Below the pieces are notes generated by a model that was not told the DNA's origin, did not search any database, and saw only the letters and a program-made list of their open reading frames with translations. A DNA stretch of 37,339 bases from a virus (lineage: Duplodnaviria; Caudoviricetes), in the IMG/VR virus record IMGVR_UViG_3300008005_000038, positions 1-37,339 of that record. The stretch is one strand, 5' to 3'. A program made the position numbers and the translations under genes. This document shows positions 4,311-10,481 of the stretch, piece after piece (positions within the stretch are counted from its first letter, which is position 1; every line of letters begins with the position of its first letter).

Positions 4311-4549
4311 GCCGCACCCCCGGCGTCGCGGTGCACCGATTGCAGGTGGCGGTCGCGGGCATGGGCGTCGACGGCGGCGCGCACGGCGCAGTCCTTGGCC
4401 TCCAGCAGCTTGCGCAGGGCGGCGTCCTTTTCGGGGCCGTCGGCGAGGCAGGCGTCGAGATCGTCGGCGAGCCGCTCGAACGGCGCCGAGACCGGCCGCA
4501 GGTGGTCGGGCAGGTGGGCGTACTCGAAATATCGCAGGGGGGTGTGCAT
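4307..4549 (-). CDS. Small helical-hairpin protein, possible Acb2/Tad1-like nucleotide-signal sponge
   Basis: YFEYAHLP..VSAPF..PEKDAALRKLLEAKDCAVRA, containing an E-x3-A-[LI]-x-K-L-x-E-A motif. First gene of the leftward operon. Confidence 0.5.
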   Translation of the reverse strand: MHTPLRYFEYAHLPDHLRPVSAPFERLADDLDACLADGPEKDAALRKLLEAKDCAVRAAVDAHARDRHLQSVHRDAGGAA

Positions 4550-4568
4550 GGCGGTGGGCCTTTCGATT

Positions 4569-4918: not shown

Positions 4919-5317
4919 ATGCCGCGACCAGATACGTCTCTGCAAGACCGCAACCTCGGCGGCTGGATCGCCGCGATCTTCGTGGGCGGCTTGCTGGTCC
5001 TTGGCGGCATCGCCTGGCTTGTCACGACCGAGGAGGGGCTGCCGCATCACGCGTGGGAGCGGCCCGAACACGGCAAGGCGCGAATCGCCTGCCGCGATTA
5101 CATCGAGGAGCGCCTGCACGACCCGTCATCTGTCGAGTGGGGCGATCTGATCGAATGGACGGCGTCGGAGATGCACATGGGCGAGATCACGGTCTGGCCG
5201 CGCTTCCGGGCGCGCAACACTTACGGCGCGCTGGTGCTGGAGCGGCGGACATGCCTTGTCGATGCCCGGCCAAGCCTGCGCCGCGCCCGCGTCATTTCAC
5301 TGCGCGATTTTCCCTAG
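4919..5317 (+). CDS. Single-TM membrane-anchored periplasmic protein (moron-like)
   Basis: N-terminal TM helix, then C..YIEERLHDPSS...FRARNTYGA..C. Confidence 0.7.
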   Translation: MPRPDTSLQDRNLGGWIAAIFVGGLLVLGGIAWLVTTEEGLPHHAWERPEHGKARIACRDYIEERLHDPSSVEWGDLIEWTASEMHMGEITVWPRFRARNTYGALVLERRTCLVDARPSLRRARVISLRDFP

Positions 5318-5940
5318 GCCGCGTCCATCTGCGGTGCGCGGTAGCTCGCCGCGATCCGGCCCATGATTGTGGTGCGGTGGTTGTCCACGACCAGCGCCTC
5401 GGCGTCGGCGGCGGCGTCGTTGGCGATCAAATAGGGCGGCAGGTAGCGGCGCAGCACGGTACTGGCCGAGCCGACGGCAAGGTCGGCGACATTGGCCAGC
5501 ACCAGGTCGCCGGTCTTCGGCGACGCCTTTAGATCCACGATCAGCACGTCGCCGGGCAGGAGGGCGAAGCCCGGCATCGCCACGCGCAGCCGGTAGGTGG
5601 CGAGCTGCCGCCCCGCCGGCGCCAGCAGCTGCGGCAGAAGCCGCTGTTTCTCCGCGAGGTCGGGGCGCTGCCCCGCCGGGGCGCGCAGCTCGAACGGCTC
5701 CGCCTCCGATTCGCCGAACCCGTCAGCGCGTTCGTTCGGCCTTTCCCCTTCCGCCAAGTAGGCGAGCGACACACCCAGCACCCGCGCGATGTTCTGCACG
5801 TTCTCAAGCCGTGGGGATTTGTCCGGGTCAGTTTCGATTGCTTGCACGGTGCCCGGGCTGAGCCCCGCAGCGATGGACACTTCGCGCGCGCTCTTGCCGG
5901 CCTTTTCGCGTAGCGTCCTGATTCTATTTCCAAGGGTCAT
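5314..5940 (-). CDS. CI-like repressor (XRE HTH plus degenerate S24-like C-terminal domain)
   Basis: LGNRIRTLREKAGKSAREVSIAAGLSPGTVQAIE...PRLENVQNIARVLGVSLAYL; C-terminal PGDVLIVD...PKTGDLVLA; divergent from a cro-like gene. Confidence 0.88.
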   Translation of the reverse strand: MTLGNRIRTLREKAGKSAREVSIAAGLSPGTVQAIETDPDKSPRLENVQNIARVLGVSLAYLAEGERPNERADGFGESEAEPFELRAPAGQRPDLAEKQRLLPQLLAPAGRQLATYRLRVAMPGFALLPGDVLIVDLKASPKTGDLVLANVADLAVGSASTVLRRYLPPYLIANDAAADAEALVVDNHRTTIMGRIAASYRAPQMDAA

Positions 5941-6006
5941 CCCGTCTCACCGTCGTTGCCGTGATCTTTTGATCGGTCGATGCACGGATACGCCATTGCA
6001 AGCACC

Positions 6007-6048
6007 TCCGAAAAAACGGTTTACAAGCATCCGATTTTCGGATACAAG
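6007..6048 (+). promoter_or_regulatory. PR-like promoter with operators
   Basis: TTTACA(6020-25)-N17-TACAAG(6043-48). Palindrome ATCCGA-TTT-TCGGAT (6029-6043) lies in the spacer; second box TCCGAAAAAACGG at ~6007-6019. Confidence 0.65.
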
Positions 6049-6055
6049 CCTTTTC

Positions 6056-6325
6056 ATGACCTACGCAGACCATCTCCGCGCCCTGATCGAGGAAGCGCAG
6101 CGCGCCGTTCCGGGGCTGACCTATCGCGGCCTCGCGAGCCGGGCCTCGATCGGGCTTGGCTGGGTCAGCGAATTCATGGCTACCGGCTCGGGCACCTTCT
6201 CGCGCGCCGAGGCGGTCGTCGCGGTGATCCGCGATCTCTGCCCCACCGGCGAAAGCGGTGACCGCCTGCGCCGCCTGCTGGCCCAGTTCGACGCCGAGAC
6301 CGAAAACGAAAGGGACGCGGCATGA
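6056..6325 (+). CDS. Cro-like HTH protein
   Basis: MTYADHLRALIEE...LTYRGLASRASIGLGWVSEF; divergent from the repressor. Confidence 0.75.
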   Translation: MTYADHLRALIEEAQRAVPGLTYRGLASRASIGLGWVSEFMATGSGTFSRAEAVVAVIRDLCPTGESGDRLRRLLAQFDAETENERDAA

Positions 6326-6336
6326 CGGTCCCGATT

Positions 6337-6409
6337 TCATCCATGCGGCTCCTCCTCCCGGCCGGCGTGGGTGACGGGCCGGGCGGCGGTGGCAGGCGCC
6401 GCCCGGCCC
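6337..6409 (+). ncRNA. Cuckoo-type (CCUCCUCCC-loop) hairpin followed by a 13-bp hairpin
   Basis: Stem 6337-6350/6360-6374 encloses loop CCTCCTCCC (6351-6359). Second stem GGGCCGGGCGGCG/CGCCGCCCGGCCC (6376-6409). Confidence 0.65.
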
Positions 6410-6467
6410 ATCCTGATTCTCACCGTAGCGGGGCACCCGCGCCCTGCCAAGGAAACGAGGTTGCGGC

Positions 6468-6902
6468 ATGAGCCAGATCGAGAACCTGCGCGCCTGCACG
6501 CGGGCGCTGGTGCAGCGGTTCGGCTGCTATGAGGCGGCGGCGGCGACGATTTCCGCCCGGCTTGGCACCGCCACCGGGAAGGGCACCGTGTCGAAAAAAA
6601 TGGCCGGGCAGTGGGATTTCAGCGTGCCAGAGATCGTGGCGCTGGAGGATGCGATGGGCGACCACCCGGTCAGCCGGATGCTGGCCCGCCGCCTCGGCGG
6701 CGCGGAGCAGCGTATGGCAGGGGTCGACCTGGTCGAGCAGGGCGGGCTGATCGCCAAAGAAGCGGGAGAGGCGGTCAACGCCATCCTCGCCGCCGGTCAG
6801 TCCGCCGGGCGGGGGCGCGAGGCCGCCGCCGTGGTCGAGATCGACGAGGCCATCGCGGCGCTGGAAGCGGCGCGCCAGCACCTGCAGGAGAAGGGGGGAT
6901 GA
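6468..6902 (+). CDS. CII-like phage regulatory protein
   Basis: Position after cro; HTH-like segment ...KGTVSKKMAG..FSVPEIVALEDAMGDHPVSRMLA. Confidence 0.6.
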   Translation: MSQIENLRACTRALVQRFGCYEAAAATISARLGTATGKGTVSKKMAGQWDFSVPEIVALEDAMGDHPVSRMLARRLGGAEQRMAGVDLVEQGGLIAKEAGEAVNAILAAGQSAGRGREAAAVVEIDEAIAALEAARQHLQEKGG

Positions 6903-7237
6903 GCGATCTGTCTGTCCCCGAGCGCCTGCGGGTGCATGCCTCTTGCGGCGAGCTGGTCAAGTGGACCATGACCGCCGAGGAGGCGCGGCGCGTGGCCGGC
7001 CTTCTGGAGCGCGGCGGCCTGTCGCCGGAGAAGGAGGCGCGGATCCTGTCCGCCGCGACCTCCGCCGCCCTGGCCCGGATCGGCGAGACGCTGGGCCTCG
7101 CCCGCGCGCTGCGCGAGATGCGCCGCGACACGGCGCGCCGGCGGATCGACACGCTCTTGTGGTGGGGCGGGCTGGCCTTCATCGCCGCCCAGCTGACCGA
7201 CCTCTGGGTCACGCTCGTGATCGGGGGTGCGCCATGA
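6899..7237 (+). CDS. Hypothetical protein with C-terminal TM helix
   Basis: MSDLSVPERLRVH...LLWWGGLAFIAAQLTDLWVTLVIGG; ATGA-coupled. Confidence 0.7.
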   Translation: MSDLSVPERLRVHASCGELVKWTMTAEEARRVAGLLERGGLSPEKEARILSAATSAALARIGETLGLARALREMRRDTARRRIDTLLWWGGLAFIAAQLTDLWVTLVIGGAP

Positions 7238-7437
7238 CCTGCCTTCCCGATCCGCGCGCCGGCCTGCTGACGATCCTGCGCGATTTCGGCCCGCAGCCGG
7301 CCGAGGATATCGCGGCGCTGGCCGACATCCTCGGCGCGCCGGAGCCGGTGGTGGCCGGCCTGGTCGATGAGCTGGCCGAGGCCGGCGAGATCGAGCGCTT
7401 TGCCGGCGCGCTGCGCCTGCGCGGGGTGGCGGCATGA
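7234..7437 (+). CDS. Small winged-HTH-like protein
   Basis: LLTILRDFGPQPAEDIAALADILGAPEPVVAGLVDELAEAGEIERF; ATGA-coupled. Confidence 0.65.
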   Translation: MTCLPDPRAGLLTILRDFGPQPAEDIAALADILGAPEPVVAGLVDELAEAGEIERFAGALRLRGVAA

Positions 7438-7499
7438 CGTGGCGCCCCGACACCGACCCCGGCGCGGCGGGCAATCCGCGCGACTGCCTGTGTGGACTT

Positions 7500-7530
7500 G
7501 CCCGGCCGGCCCCGGCTGGCCGGGCCTTTT
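7500..7530 (+). terminator. Intrinsic terminator-like hairpin upstream of the RNA array
   Basis: GCCCGGCCGGC/GCTGGCCGGGC stem followed by CTTTT. Confidence 0.55.
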
Positions 7531-7541
7531 CGCCGCTTTCC

Positions 7542-8046
7542 GAGCGGCGCCCGTATGCCGGACGATCCAGTGCCACTGGTGAGGGCGATGGCGGATCGGG
7601 TGTCGCTCCGAGCGCGGCGAGCCAGCGACGGCCTTACGTCGCAGCCCATGTCGGGCTCATGACCCGGCATGTCGGGGTTGGCATCCCGACGCTCAACCAA
7701 TCCCGAGCGAAAGCAACCGATCGCGGAGCCGGTCCTAACGGGCACGGAGGCTACGGGCCGGCGTTTGCGAGTAGGCGATCCATGACGCGGATCATGGACC
7801 GTAGCTGCACGGCGGAAACGGCGGCAGAGGCCAAAGGGCCGCGGCGGGTGGAAGCCCCGCACCTGCCGCTTTCCGGCGGGTGCAGATTAGCCGTCCATCG
7901 CAAGACCCGGACGGCGCGGGCCGGTGGAGATGGCCGCCACCGCTGCACCCACCCGAGCGCGGCGAACTGCCATGGACGGCGGGCTTACTTTGCCAAGGAC
8001 GCGACCCGGAAACGGGCTGTGGGATCGGTTCCCACCGCCGCGCTCG
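7542..8046 (+). ncRNA. Tandem array of tRNA-like/multibranched structured RNA modules
   Basis: Abutting closed modules at about 7542-7608, 7610-7699, 7721-7770, 7771-7808, 7813-7875, 7878-7950 and 7954-8046. G.U pairs favour the + strand; T-loop-like and GNRA loops are present. Confidence 0.65.
7610..7699 (+). tRNA. Degenerate tRNA-fMet-like element (anticodon CAT, 3' ACCA)
   Basis: Anticodon arm ATGTCGGG-CTCATGA-CCCGGCAT with three consecutive G-C pairs; T-like arm GTCGGG..CCCGAC; GAGCG/CGCTC closing stem; ends CAACCA. Confidence 0.55.
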
Positions 8047-8049
8047 ACC
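7954..8049 (+). tRNA. Degenerate class-II-like cloverleaf (loop TTGCCAA, long variable arm)
   Basis: 11-bp closing stem CGAGCGCGGCG/CGCCGCGCTCG; D-like arm CTGCC-ATGGAC-GGCGG; variable arm CCCG-GAAA-CGGG; T arm GTGGG-ATCGGTT-CCCAC. Confidence 0.5.
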
Positions 8050-8052
8050 CTT

Positions 8053-8121
8053 GGCGCGCCACCTCCTCCCGGCGCGCCGCCCCGGCCCGTGCATCGCTCA
8101 CGGGACAGGACGGGCCGGGGC
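8053..8121 (+). ncRNA. Second cuckoo-type hairpin plus a 12-bp hairpin
   Basis: GGCGCGCC-ACCTCCTCCC-GGCGCGCC (8053-8078), then GCCCCGGCCCGT/ACGGGCCGGGGC (8079-8121). Confidence 0.65.
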
Positions 8122-8143
8122 CGTCATCCCCGCGGGGTGCGGC

Positions 8144-8356
8144 ATGAGCCCGGCCCGCGATATCCTGCGCGCGGCGCGCGGCGGGCAGCGGCCGGACCGT
8201 GACGCCCTGCGCCGCGCCAAGATCGCCAGCCTTGCCTCAGCCGAGGAAATCGAGGGCTACCGCCTCGGCGCCGCCTGGTCGCGCCGCGCCCTGACGGATG
8301 ACGAGCGCGCCGCGCTGACCCGCCGCGCGGCCGAGATCGCGAGGGCACGGCGATGA
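8144..8356 (+). CDS. Hypothetical phage protein
   Basis: MSPARDILRAARGG...; ATGA-coupled at both ends. Confidence 0.7.
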   Translation: MSPARDILRAARGGQRPDRDALRRAKIASLASAEEIEGYRLGAAWSRRALTDDERAALTRRAAEIARARR

Positions 8357-8811
8357 CCGGGCGCGTCGACGAGGAGGATTTCCGGGCGGCCTGGGGTCGG
8401 GCGCTCGGCTGGCCGATATCGCCGCGCGCTTCGGGATTTCGGTGAGCACGGTCAAGAACACGCGGATCGCGCTGGGTCTGCCGCCGCGCCACCGGGGCGG
8501 CGCGGGTCGCGCGCAGCTTGACGAGGCGGCGTTCCGCGCGGCCTGGGCCGACCCGCGCCTTTCCCGCGACGAGATCGCCCGCCGCTTCGGGATGTCGATC
8601 AGCAGCGTGGCGCTGACGGTCAAGCGCCTGGGCCTGCCGCCGCGCCCGGCAGCGGCAGCGCGACGAGCAGCTGCTGGGCTGGCTGGCCCTGCGCGAGGCC
8701 GGGCTGAGCTTTTCCGAGATCGCCCGACGCGCCGGGCTGACCCAGCAGGCTGTCAGCGCGGCGCTGCGCCCGATCGAGGCCGAGATGGAGGATGACGATG
8801 CCAAATCCTGA
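8353..8811 (+). pseudogene. Multi-HTH protein gene with two frameshifts (~8400 and ~8655)
   Basis: Two repeats of DE.xFRAAW...IAxRFGxSxSxV...LGLPPR and a third HTH (EAGLSFSEIARRAGLTQQAVS) are split between reading frames. The start frame stops at ~8443. Confidence 0.65.
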
Positions 8812-9028
8812 CGCGCTGAAAACCGCTCGTACCCGGATCGCCATGGCCGAGGAGCAATTGCAGATCGCCTGCACCGCCCTGCGCCGGCAGGGCTGGCCGG
8901 AAAACGCGGATGCGCTTGCCGTGGAGCTTAAGCGCCTGCGCATCTGGACGCAGGACGGCGGGTTTCTCGACTGCATGGCGCGCGAGGCGATCGAGGTCGC
9001 CGCGGACGATGCGGAGGGCACGCCATGA
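8798..9028 (+). CDS. Hypothetical phage protein
   Basis: MPNPDALKTARTRIAMAEEQL...; RBS GGAGGA. Confidence 0.7.
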   Translation: MPNPDALKTARTRIAMAEEQLQIACTALRRQGWPENADALAVELKRLRIWTQDGGFLDCMAREAIEVAADDAEGTP

Positions 9029-9360
9029 GCGACCCGCGCACCGCCTTCGCCTTCCGGGCCTTTGCCATGGCGATGAAGGCGCGCGCCCGGGCCCTGCGCC
9101 CGGCCGAGGCGCTGGATCTGTCGCTGGCCTGGGCCGACATGGTGCCGGGCGATTCCGAGGCCGCGATGGCGGTGCTGCGCTTCCAGGCCGGTCTGCGCGG
9201 CGACGGCGCGGCGGCGGGCGCGGCGTTGCACGATTTCCTGGTCGGCTGGTGCGACGCGGGCACGGCGGCGCAGGCCGACCGCGCCGAGGATCGGCTCGTC
9301 GCCTTCGACGCGCTGCCGCCGCGCTACGACTGGCAGGAGCGCAAGGATATCTGCGGATGA
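9025..9360 (+). CDS. Hypothetical phage protein
   Basis: 111-aa ORF, ATGA-coupled at both ends. Confidence 0.75.
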   Translation: MSDPRTAFAFRAFAMAMKARARALRPAEALDLSLAWADMVPGDSEAAMAVLRFQAGLRGDGAAAGAALHDFLVGWCDAGTAAQADRAEDRLVAFDALPPRYDWQERKDICG

Positions 9361-10481
9361 GCGTGACCCGGGATGATCCCCGCCTGGCCGAGGCCAAGGC
9401 GATGCCGATCCGCGAGGTCGTGGACCGGCTCGGGATCGACGGGCTGCGCCCGGCGGGGGCGGAGCTGGTCGGGCCGTGCCCGTTGTGCGGCGGCACGGAT
9501 CGGTTCGGGGTCAACCTGCGCAGCCACCGGTTCCTGTGCCGCCGCTGCGGGATCGCGGGGGGCGACACCGTGGCGCTGGTCATGGCGGTGGAGGGGCTGG
9601 GGTTTCGCGCCGCGCTCGACTGGCTCTGCGGCCCGGCGCGGGAGATCGACCCGGCAGAAAGGGCGCGGCGCGACGCGCTGGCCCGCAAAGCCGAGGAAGA
9701 ACGCGCGGCCGAGGCGCAGCGCTACCGGGACCTGGCCATGCGCGATGCGCGGACGATCTGGGCGCGGGCGGTGCGTGACGATGGCGACCGGCTGCGGGCC
9801 TATTTCGCGGCGCGCGGGCTGTCGGGGCTCGACCCGGCGCGGCTCGACGCGATCCGCGTCCTGCCCGACCACCCCTACGTGCGCAAGATCGGCGGGCAGC
9901 TGGTGACGCTGCATCGCGGCCCCTGCATGGTCGCGCGGATCGACGGGCCGGGCGCGGATTGCGTCGCGGTGCACCAGACCTGGCTGGCGGCGGATGGGCG
10001 CGGCAAGGCGCGGATCCGGCACGGCGGCAAGGATTACCCGGCCAAGATGGTGCGCGGCGCCAAGCGCGGCGGGGTGATCCGCCTGTCGGACCCGTGCCCC
10101 GGCTGGGCGGTGCTGGTCATGGGCGAGGGGATCGAGACGACGCTGACCGCGATGCTGGCGCGGGTCTTTCCGGATGCGAGCTACTGGGCCGGCGTGGACC
10201 TGGGCAACATCTCGGGCCGGATGGCGCGGGTCGAGGGCGTGAAATGGTCCGGCCTGCCCGACATGGACGACGCGGAGGCCTTCGTCCCGCCGCCCTGGGT
10301 GCGCCGCCTCGTGCTGATCGAGGATGGCGACAGCCATCCCGCGATGACCCGCGCCAAGCTGCTGTCGGGCGCGCGCCGCGCGATGCGTCTGCGCCCCGGC
10401 CTGAAGGCGCAGATCGTGCGCGCCGGCGACGGCGTGGATCTCAACGACTTGGTGACACCGGACCCGGAGGGGCAAGAATGA
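9357..10481 (+). CDS. Phage DNA primase (N-terminal zinc-binding domain plus Toprim-like domain)
   Basis: GPCPLCGGTDRF...CRRC zinc ribbon; GEGIETTLTA; IEDGDS; C-terminal GVDLND. Confidence 0.9.
   Translation: MSVTRDDPRLAEAKAMPIREVVDRLGIDGLRPAGAELVGPCPLCGGTDRFGVNLRSHRFLCRRCGIAGGDTVALVMAVEGLGFRAALDWLCGPAREIDPAERARRDALARKAEEERAAEAQRYRDLAMRDARTIWARAVRDDGDRLRAYFAARGLSGLDPARLDAIRVLPDHPYVRKIGGQLVTLHRGPCMVARIDGPGADCVAVHQTWLAADGRGKARIRHGGKDYPAKMVRGAKRGGVIRLSDPCPGWAVLVMGEGIETTLTAMLARVFPDASYWAGVDLGNISGRMARVEGVKWSGLPDMDDAEAFVPPPWVRRLVLIEDGDSHPAMTRAKLLSGARRAMRLRPGLKAQIVRAGDGVDLNDLVTPDPEGQE

What the first reader, a model, noticed from the sequence alone, without database searches (positions are those of the whole stretch)
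7500..8121. ~620-nt array of abutting tRNA-like RNA modules in the early lytic operon
Seen in sequence: after a terminator-like hairpin (7500-7530), the DNA is tiled nearly without gaps by closed multibranch modules. These include 7542-7608 (12-bp stem, 2 G.U), 7610-7699, 7721-7770 and 7771-7808. Further modules are 7813-7875 (GCGGG-TGGAAGC-CCCGC T-loop-like arm), 7878-7950 (8-bp stem, GCAA loop) and 7954-8046 (11-bp stem), followed by a CCUCCUCCC hairpin. Modules share starts (ccgagcgcggcga at 7608 and 7953; gccgctttccg at 7532 and 7866), and G.U pairs indicate RNA-level structure on the + strand. Inference: this is a polycistronic precursor of tRNA mimics/sRNAs. They could be decoys against host anticodon nucleases, RNase P/Z-processed regulators analogous to P1 C4 or P4 CI RNA, or a cis antitermination element like HK022 put. 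I do not recognise it as a described family.
Basis: partly seen in the sequence, partly recalled or inferred. Interest (0 to 1): 0.88.

Follow-up and report, generated by a model that had tools for sequence, protein, structure and literature searches.

The report
Translated cassette of shuffled phage RNAs
A temperate phage carries, inside its early gene block, a string of folded RNA modules that related phages reorder and keep free of stop codons without conserving any protein, likely so that ribosomes can pass through while the modules are likely cut out as small decoy or regulatory RNAs.

Summary
The structure is real (z -5.3), but it is not a row of tRNA mimics. Window 7455-8121 is a cassette of exchangeable RNA modules. 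It holds a decayed SorX-like sRNA with a terminator-like hairpin, and two copies of a two-helix unit ('AE') whose first cargo is a decayed initiator-tRNA look-alike. Motif C and AE recur in dozens of phage loci with strong covariation and match no Rfam family. Relatives carry the modules in other orders, beside real tRNAs and sRNA homologues. The 237-codon ORF over the array is ATGA-coupled at both ends. So are the ORFs over 11 other arrays, which lie mostly in early operons. Copies beside lysis genes are not kept open. The ORF shows no codon-level selection (substitutions 47/52/52 by codon position). Likely mechanism: a P4-eta-like ribosome conduit through a precursor of small RNAs. Processing, expression and targets are untested.

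The parts
7434..8147 (+). 237-codon frame over the whole cassette; its ATG overlaps the stop of gene 7234-7437 and its TGA overlaps the ATG of gene 8144-8356; no protein-level selection
   Evidence: GC by codon position 0.71/0.72/0.74 against third-position 0.89-0.94 in six neighbours; strain differences all non-synonymous, none a stop
7455..7531 (+). Decayed SorX-like sRNA ending in an 11-bp terminator-like hairpin (7500-7525) and U4; the CCUCCCUG stretch is altered
   Evidence: Rfam SorX 28.7 bits, E 1e-4, gathering 46.6; 75.6% over 82 nt to the SorX copy in L162, which scores 48.1 bits
7532..7608 (+).
   Evidence: pair probability about 1.0
7609..7699 (+). AE unit 1, E helix (7610-7694) enclosing a decayed initiator-tRNA look-alike: anticodon arm 7650-7668 with CAU, degenerate T-arm, 3' AACCA
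   Evidence: best of 32 host tRNAs is tRNA-Met CAU; 1 of 148 random windows scored as high
7700..7863 (+). Motif C: 5' AUCCC, E-loop (sarcin-ricin-type) 7707-7713 with 7768-7776, helix P2, hairpin P4 7779-7798 with loop CGCGGA, terminal hairpin 7844-7860 and ACC
   Evidence: 72% over 169 nt to L005
7865..7953 (+).
   Evidence: 86.5% over 89 nt to L162
7954..8049 (+). AE unit 2, E helix (7954-8046) with four inner arms, the last T-arm-like (8019-8035), then ACC
   Evidence: T-arm match to a host tRNA-Lys; 2 of 149 random windows scored as high
8053..8078 (+). Single Cuckoo/CcsR-type hairpin with loop ACCUCCUCCC
   Evidence: z -4.3; similar hairpin in L013
8079..8121 (+). Closing 12-bp hairpin before the ribosome-binding site of the next gene
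8144..8356 (+). Downstream 70-aa gene coupled to the cassette frame
   Evidence: homologue in L004, 33% over 63 aa, E 4e-4
7234..7437 (+). Upstream 67-aa gene whose stop overlaps the cassette ATG
   Evidence: third-position GC 0.90; no family hit

Best explanation
The stretch is a cassette of exchangeable structured-RNA modules, conserved by base-pair covariation across phages, lying in a stop-free frame coupled to both neighbouring genes but free of protein-level selection; ribosomes likely run through it only to carry the early operon past it, and host nucleases would likely cut the modules out as small RNAs that likely act as decoys or regulators of host RNA machinery. Steps: (1) shown: RNA-level conservation, module shuffling and the coupled open frame. 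(2) Inferred: the cassette is co-transcribed from the early rightward promoter. (3) Inferred: translation keeps the terminator-like hairpin at codons 23-31 and Rho from stopping transcription, and hands ribosomes on to the next gene, as P4 Eta does. (4) Inferred: on untranslated or decaying transcripts, RNase E (the AU at the start of motif C) and RNase P or tRNA 3'-trimming enzymes (acceptor-like helices ending in ACC/ACCA) release the modules. (5) Least supported: they act in trans, the fMet-like arm as bait for initiator-tRNA nucleases, the C-rich loops as anti-Shine-Dalgarno or Hfq-binding RNAs.
For: Covariation without selecting on stems: motif C P2 241 of 260 and P4 220 of 260 cells paired in 65 distinct hits (shuffle means 124 and 125, maxima 146 and 145; slid registers 81-114). 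AE P1 has at least 7 of 8 pairs in one fixed register in 20 of 21 metagenome hits. Shuffling: L162 holds D-, A-, E-, SorX- and G-like modules in another order. Other arrays mix these motifs with tRNA-Met/Thr/Pro and mmgR-, ar14- and YrlA-like RNAs. Frame: coupled at both ends in 9 of 25 AE loci including this phage and in 4 of 20 metagenome loci, one being this phage. Shared modules are read in the same frame. Open-frame probability in shuffles: 0.04 (window), 0.016 (L433), 0 of 2000 (L411). Coupled arrays lie among ssb, methylase and HTH genes, whereas L393, L413, L422 and L482 beside endolysin genes are not kept open. No protein selection: substitutions 47/52/52 by codon position against 28/25/53, 88/81/153 and 94/82/121 in controls; flat GC; no homologue. 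Trans action: motif C has no fixed partner gene, starts within -1..+5 nt of a stop codon in 24 of 52 loci (no null computed) and directly after a tRNA-Met CCA in L046, as it does after B's ACCA here. Precedent: PMC10111431 passage on P4 eta; PMC6238624 passages on RNase E release of SorX and AU at cleavage sites.
Against: No expression or processing data: the two RNA runs gave only patchy low-depth contigs. In the independent metagenome set only 8 of 20 AE units keep both anchors in frame, no more than chance, so the frame rule holds for a subset only. The end-coupling test alone is weak, and short arrays are often open by chance (P 0.27-0.53 for L394, L400, L445). This phage's copies look decayed: SorX is below its cut-off, B's T-loop is degenerate, motif C P2 has a C.U mismatch (restored in strain X12), and the thermodynamic ensemble of 7441-8140 gives P2 about 0 and the anticodon arm 0.07. 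The U-tract is only four U and was not called as a terminator. Motif C also sits in frame inside linkers of ordinary proteins (L037; 4 of 121 members of the L005 family, read by eye), which fits hitch-hiking or cis action as well. Nothing tested identifies a target.
Confidence: 0.5

Rival explanations
1. P4-type immunity or attenuation switch acting on the phage itself: when the frame is not translated the transcript stops at 7500-7530, and a cassette RNA pairs with the phage's own ribosome-binding sites to enforce this.
For: Terminator-like hairpin plus U4 directly before the AE leader here and in L260, L310, L411 and L437. L310's frame runs into a real HTH gene with its own start, like eta/kil. 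The CCUCCUCCC loop can pair with GGAGG sites (sequence).
Against: No internal sigma-70-type promoter on +. No C4/CI Rfam match. The longest perfect complements to early transcripts are 10-14 nt and GC-rich (no null computed). The phage has a conventional repressor. Most modules lie downstream of the hairpin.
Confidence: 0.2
2. Mobile, mostly neutral structured inserts (like palindromic elements inserted in frame into genes, recalled from Rickettsia RPE) plus decaying tRNA and sRNA relics; selection only purges stop codons.
For: Motif C replaces a hypervariable linker in a few members of a protein family and sits in an ATPase linker. Four of six strain differences in 4.2 kb fall in the cassette. 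This phage's modules are decayed.
Against: The invariant E-loop, the 5' WUCCC in 50 of 59 hits when not in the pattern (0 of 6 chance hits) and compensatory changes in three helices show purifying selection on folded RNA across the families.
Confidence: 0.12
3. Motif C is a cis element for processive antitermination or mRNA stabilisation (put-like, or a site for a NusG paralogue).
For: It follows a NusG-family gene in L036, heads late operons (L023, L138) and separates high- from low-copy structural genes (Mu-like gene to head-tail adaptor, tail tube to the next gene). It is followed by terminator-like hairpins in some loci (read by eye).
Against: Here it lies about 1.6 kb into the operon, downstream of the terminator-like hairpin. 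It also occurs in tRNA clusters. There is no fixed regulator gene.
Confidence: 0.1
4. Motif C is a new self-cleaving ribozyme that cuts at its 5' edge and separates modules (compatible with the best explanation).
For: Sharp conserved 5' edge next to stop codons and tRNA CCA ends; invariant non-canonical core.
Against: No match to known ribozymes (twister-sister 24.4 bits against a cut-off of 34; none in 39 loci). Its in-frame presence in protein genes would cut those mRNAs.
Confidence: 0.06
5. The 237-aa product is a functional disordered protein and the folding is incidental.
For: The frame is open and coupled.
Against: lengths of 62-365 codons in relatives, with shared residues only where the RNA motifs dictate them.
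Confidence: 0.02

Closest known systems
Phage P4 eta / CI RNA / kil region (PMC10111431 passage citing Forti et al. 1999; the original paper was not held)
   Same: A frame coupled to the upstream gene runs over structured RNA and a termination site; in L310 it continues into a gene with its own start.
   Different: No CI/C4 homology, no internal promoter or seqA/seqC-type target found. Several unrelated modules are exchanged between phages, and the frame shows no protein-level selection.
SorX (Rfam RF02784) of Rhodobacter sphaeroides
   Same: Two-hairpin 3'-end sRNA layout; L162 carries a full member and the window a homologue.
   Different: On a phage, inside an open frame, mid-operon. The window copy is 18 bits below the cut-off and its C-rich stretch is altered.
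Cuckoo / CcsR / ar14 RNAs (RF02344, RF02791; PMC4615179 passages)
   Same: CCUCCUCCC in a hairpin loop.
   Different: A single hairpin rather than 2-4 adjacent ones; no phage or prophage mention in that paper's main text.
Initiator tRNA-fMet and phage tRNA clusters
   Same: Module B is colinear with host tRNA-Met(CAU) from the anticodon arm to CCA; relatives hold real tRNA-Met at the same junction with motif C.
   Different: D-arm replaced, T-loop degenerate, A37 read as G; not called by ARAGORN or Rfam.
Pseudomonadales-1 RNA (RF03046)
   Same: Shares the CGAAAG / YGAGUAG E-loop on a helix.
   Different: 18.3 bits against a cut-off of 68; motif C has a 5' AUCCC tail, a CGG hexaloop hairpin and a GAGAGA terminal hairpin; no hit in 39 related loci.

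Membership tests
tRNA gene | Cloverleaf called by ARAGORN or Rfam RF00005 | tested here: not met
Initiator-tRNA mimic (module B) | CAU anticodon loop on a stem ending in three G-C pairs, and a 3' CCA (identity elements recalled) | tested here: met
   the arm is in the MFE and centroid but only P 0.07
Initiator-tRNA mimic (module B) | Canonical T-loop and D-loop forming the elbow | tested here: not met
SorX RF02784 | Score at or above 46.6 bits | tested here: not met
   28.7 bits; L162 copy 48.1
SorX RF02784 | Release by RNase E from a 3' end | not testable with these tools
   contig-level RNA data only
Cuckoo/CcsR | CCUCCUCCC in a hairpin loop | tested here: met
Cuckoo/CcsR | Two to four adjacent such hairpins | tested here: not met
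   one at 8062, another 1.7 kb away at 6351
P4 eta/CI/kil immunity region | ORF over the RNA region, coupled to the upstream gene | tested here: met
P4 eta/CI/kil immunity region | CI/C4-family RNA | tested here: not met
   no C4-type Rfam hit
P4 eta/CI/kil immunity region | Constitutive promoter inside the ORF | tested here: inconclusive
   none on + in a sigma-70 consensus scan; other promoter types are not covered
P4 eta/CI/kil immunity region | Antisense target sites in the same transcript | tested here: inconclusive
   only short GC-rich complements
P4 eta/CI/kil immunity region | Translation prevents termination | not testable with these tools
   needs a reporter
HK022 put antiterminator | Promoter-proximal two-stem RNA that modifies RNA polymerase in cis (recalled) | not testable with these tools
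   position is not promoter-proximal; no Rfam match
Pseudomonadales-1 RF03046 | Score at or above 68 bits | tested here: not met
   18.3 bits; absent from the tables
Known self-cleaving ribozymes | Match to a ribozyme model at its cut-off | tested here: not met
Ordinary protein-coding gene (237 aa) | Third-position excess of substitutions, phage codon bias, homologues | tested here: not met

The most novel reading that the evidence does not exclude
Alphaproteobacterial temperate phages run a plug-in system for RNA payloads. A standard AE scaffold and motif C (possibly a new processing ribozyme or polymerase-binding RNA) carry swappable cargo, including captured host sRNAs and tRNA-shaped baits against tRNA-cutting defences. 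A protein-free reading frame lets the cassette be dropped anywhere in an operon without polarity.
Probability: 0.25. Interest if true: 0.9.

Novelty: new variant of a known kind. Interest (0 to 1): 0.74.

Why it matters
It defines two widespread, strongly covarying phage RNA families that are missing from Rfam. It shows a design rule: a reading frame kept open for ribosome passage rather than for its protein, which explains a class of meaningless 'hypothetical proteins' in phage early operons. It also shows phages carrying homologues of host stress sRNAs (SorX, Cuckoo, mmgR) and tRNA-shaped relics in one exchangeable block. That makes RNA-based host takeover or counter-defence directly testable in laboratory Rhodobacter or Paracoccus strains.

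Tried and rejected
ARAGORN and Rfam gathering on the window: nothing. blastn of the array against cultured phages: no match. Two motif-C members found only the short terminal hairpin, plus one partial match in a Bradyrhizobium phage. Protein-led locus searches gave few relatives; of the non-identical ones L004, L007, L012 and L013 lack AE and motif C by BLAST. The first A-module pattern was mostly chance: 3 distinct real sequences in 29 stretches, one of them this phage. The E-stem pattern was mostly chance too. The family-wide genome scan gave 5 of 401 genomes, one of them real (L482). Rows dropped before counts: 13 of 66 motif-C hits failed the stem test, L143 was dropped by eye and L048 replaced by the window. 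52 of 84 AE hits failed the filter and 6 more loci were dropped by eye; the 214-of-216 pairing figure rests on that selected set, so one search is the fair test. A pseudoknot between 5' UCC/CCG and the P4 loop showed no covariation and is not claimed. A Gly(GCC)-like loop in module E (7990-7996) was not supported: tRNA-Gly was not the best match. RNA runs X23 and X24 gave 9 and 4 laid records at low depth, which are uninformative. Literature: sequence strings in full text gave 1 unrelated hit; term searches are. Supplements of PMC5737381 and PMC11109978 and files 1-2 of PMC10690425 could not be read, so either motif may be among their candidate RNAs; the other files of PMC10690425 had no match.

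Full report
Setting. The window is a whole 37.3-kb virus record of a GC-rich temperate phage: repressor 5314-5940(-), CII-like 6468-6902, primase from 9357, then head, tail and lysis genes. The host is inferred to be alphaproteobacterial, probably Rhodobacterales. Named genomes carrying motif C include Tabrizicola, Paracoccaceae, Mesorhizobium, Aminobacter and Chelatococcus, and SorX is a Rhodobacter family.

Observation. 7500-8121 folds at z -5.27 on + and -2.32 on -. Of 24 150-nt windows across 5901-9500, the two lowest z values lie in it. ARAGORN and Rfam gathering find nothing. Weak Rfam matches are SorX 7455-7531 (28.7 bits) and Pseudomonadales-1 (18.3 bits).

Motif C (7700-7863). A CII relative, L005, shared 169 nt at 72%. 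A 15-mer from that match hit 58 viral stretches, and gapped patterns added 25 genome and 51 viral stretches. These gave 66 distinct sequences, 53 with a helix that the pattern did not specify. RNAalifold on 52 rows shows both-sided changes in 26, 21, 32 and 9 rows at four pairs. A looser pattern without the 5' end gave 74 stretches and 65 distinct hits. With no selection, P2 pairs in 241 of 260 cells and P4 in 220 of 260 (shuffle maxima 146 and 145; slid registers 81-114). A terminal GAGAGA hairpin is present in 32 of the 59 good hits (114 of 128 cells paired). The 5' WUCCC appears in 50 of 59 good hits and 0 of 6 bad ones. The shuffle ignores relatedness; the slid control keeps it. The core CGAAAG / YGAGUAG matches the sarcin-ricin E-loop consensus (recalled). 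No non-tRNA Rfam family covers the motif in 39 loci (searches also included two chance loci). It starts within -1..+5 nt of a stop codon in 24 of 52 loci (no null). Contexts include Mu-like head genes, tail tube, NusG-like, HNH-terminase and cro. In L046 it directly follows a tRNA-Met CCA.

AE unit (7532-7699 and 7865-8049). 110 viral stretches and 5 genomes gave 84 distinct hits; 24 loci were kept, plus L310. In these selected loci P1 pairs in 214 of 216 cells. In an independent metagenome scan (26 stretches, 21 distinct) 20 keep at least 7 of 8 pairs in the same register. Cargo includes a tRNA body in L482 (50 bits) and a T-arm in L414. No Rfam family matches the scaffold.

tRNA likeness. 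Module B is colinear with host tRNA-Met(CAU) from the anticodon arm to CCA. It is the best match among 32 distinct host tRNAs, and 1 of 148 random windows scored as high. E has a T-arm-like hairpin (2 of 149). A and D have no tRNA similarity. B lacks a canonical elbow, so it is a relic or mimic, not a tRNA.

Shuffling. L162 holds a 1.1-kb array right after a cro-like gene, with D-, A-, E- and G-like modules and a full SorX member in another order. L260 and L310 share the order C-rich RNA, terminator-like hairpin, AE. Other arrays carry mmgR-, ar14- and YrlA-like RNAs below their cut-offs, and real tRNAs.

The reading frame. ORF 7434-8147 overlaps the stop of the gene before and the start of the gene after. 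The same holds in L005 (125 codons) and L162 (365 codons). In L310 the frame runs into a real HTH gene. Shared modules are read in one frame. Both ends are coupled in 9 of 25 AE loci, and 16 of 25 keep the anchors in frame. In the metagenome set the figures are 4 and 8 of 20, so this is a property of a subset. Where neighbours could be named, that subset lies among ssb, methylase and HTH genes. Copies beside endolysin genes (L393, L413, L422, L482) are not kept open. Long arrays are unlikely to be open by chance (0.04, 0.038, 0.016, 0 of 2000); short ones are not informative. The frame encodes nothing under selection. Substitutions in eight array pairs are 47/52/52 by codon position, against clear third-position excess in three control pairs. 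GC is flat across codon positions. There is no homologue. All four strain differences in it are non-synonymous, while both in neighbouring genes are silent.

Mechanism. Shown: RNA-level conservation, exchange of modules, and an open coupled frame without protein selection. Inferred: ribosomes traverse the cassette to avoid polarity and to hand on to the next gene. P4 Eta is described as doing this in PMC10111431 (passages; the primary paper was not held). Inferred: modules are released by host nucleases, as SorX is by RNase E, with AU enriched at cleavage sites (PMC6238624, passages). Weakest: they act in trans as baits and anti-Shine-Dalgarno regulators; initiator-tRNA-cutting nucleases are recalled, and no decoy paper was found. 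Against a purely trans view, motif C also sits in frame in protein linkers, where it has replaced a variable linker in 4 of 121 family members (read by eye). No expression evidence was obtained.

Novelty. The architecture has a precedent in P4. The two RNA families, the exchange of cargo and the phage-borne SorX were not found in Rfam 15 or in nine paper searches. Three catalogues' supplements were partly or wholly unreadable. Papers seen: PMC10690425, first fifth of the text and 7 supplement files; PMC4615179, PMC6238624 and PMC10111431, passages; PMC5737381 and PMC11109978, search listing only. An earlier scan note (e1-9766094) describes a similar stop-free array in another genome; it is a repeat of the idea, not support. 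Verdict: new variant of a known kind, interest 0.74.

Noticed in passing
window 6322-6471 (+): A second, small cassette: a 49-codon frame ATGA-coupled to cro and to the CII-like gene, with flat codon GC, lying over a CCUCCUCCC hairpin.
   Followed up: partly
window 8353-8795 (+): Strain X12 has one extra G after 8392, so the HTH gene annotated 8442-8795 is probably frameshifted in this record and starts at 8353.
   Followed up: no
L005 6318-7235 and L037 914-2938(-): Motif C lies in frame in the linker of real proteins. Other members of the L005 family have linkers that also look like translated RNA modules.
   Followed up: partly
L068, L073, L078, L086, L093, L105, L117, L123, L142: In Mu-like alphaproteobacterial prophages motif C sits between a small head-region gene (FluMu_N-like in L068) and the head-tail adaptor gene.
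   Followed up: partly
L162 1608-1681; L007 about 4490-4562: A phage-borne SorX above the Rfam cut-off; a SorX/mmgR-like end right after the CII-like gene in L007 (by eye).
   Followed up: partly
L482 1575-1660: The E helix extends the acceptor stem of a tRNA body with a shrunken anticodon arm.
   Followed up: no
phage records H1-H16: The GUGACA + GAGAGA hairpin that ends motif C also occurs in unrelated cultured phages (Pseudomonas Medea1, Cronobacter CS01), mostly outside annotated features.
   Followed up: no
L035, downstream of motif C: Long array of other hairpin modules separated by AUUCAGUU-like spacers.
   Followed up: no
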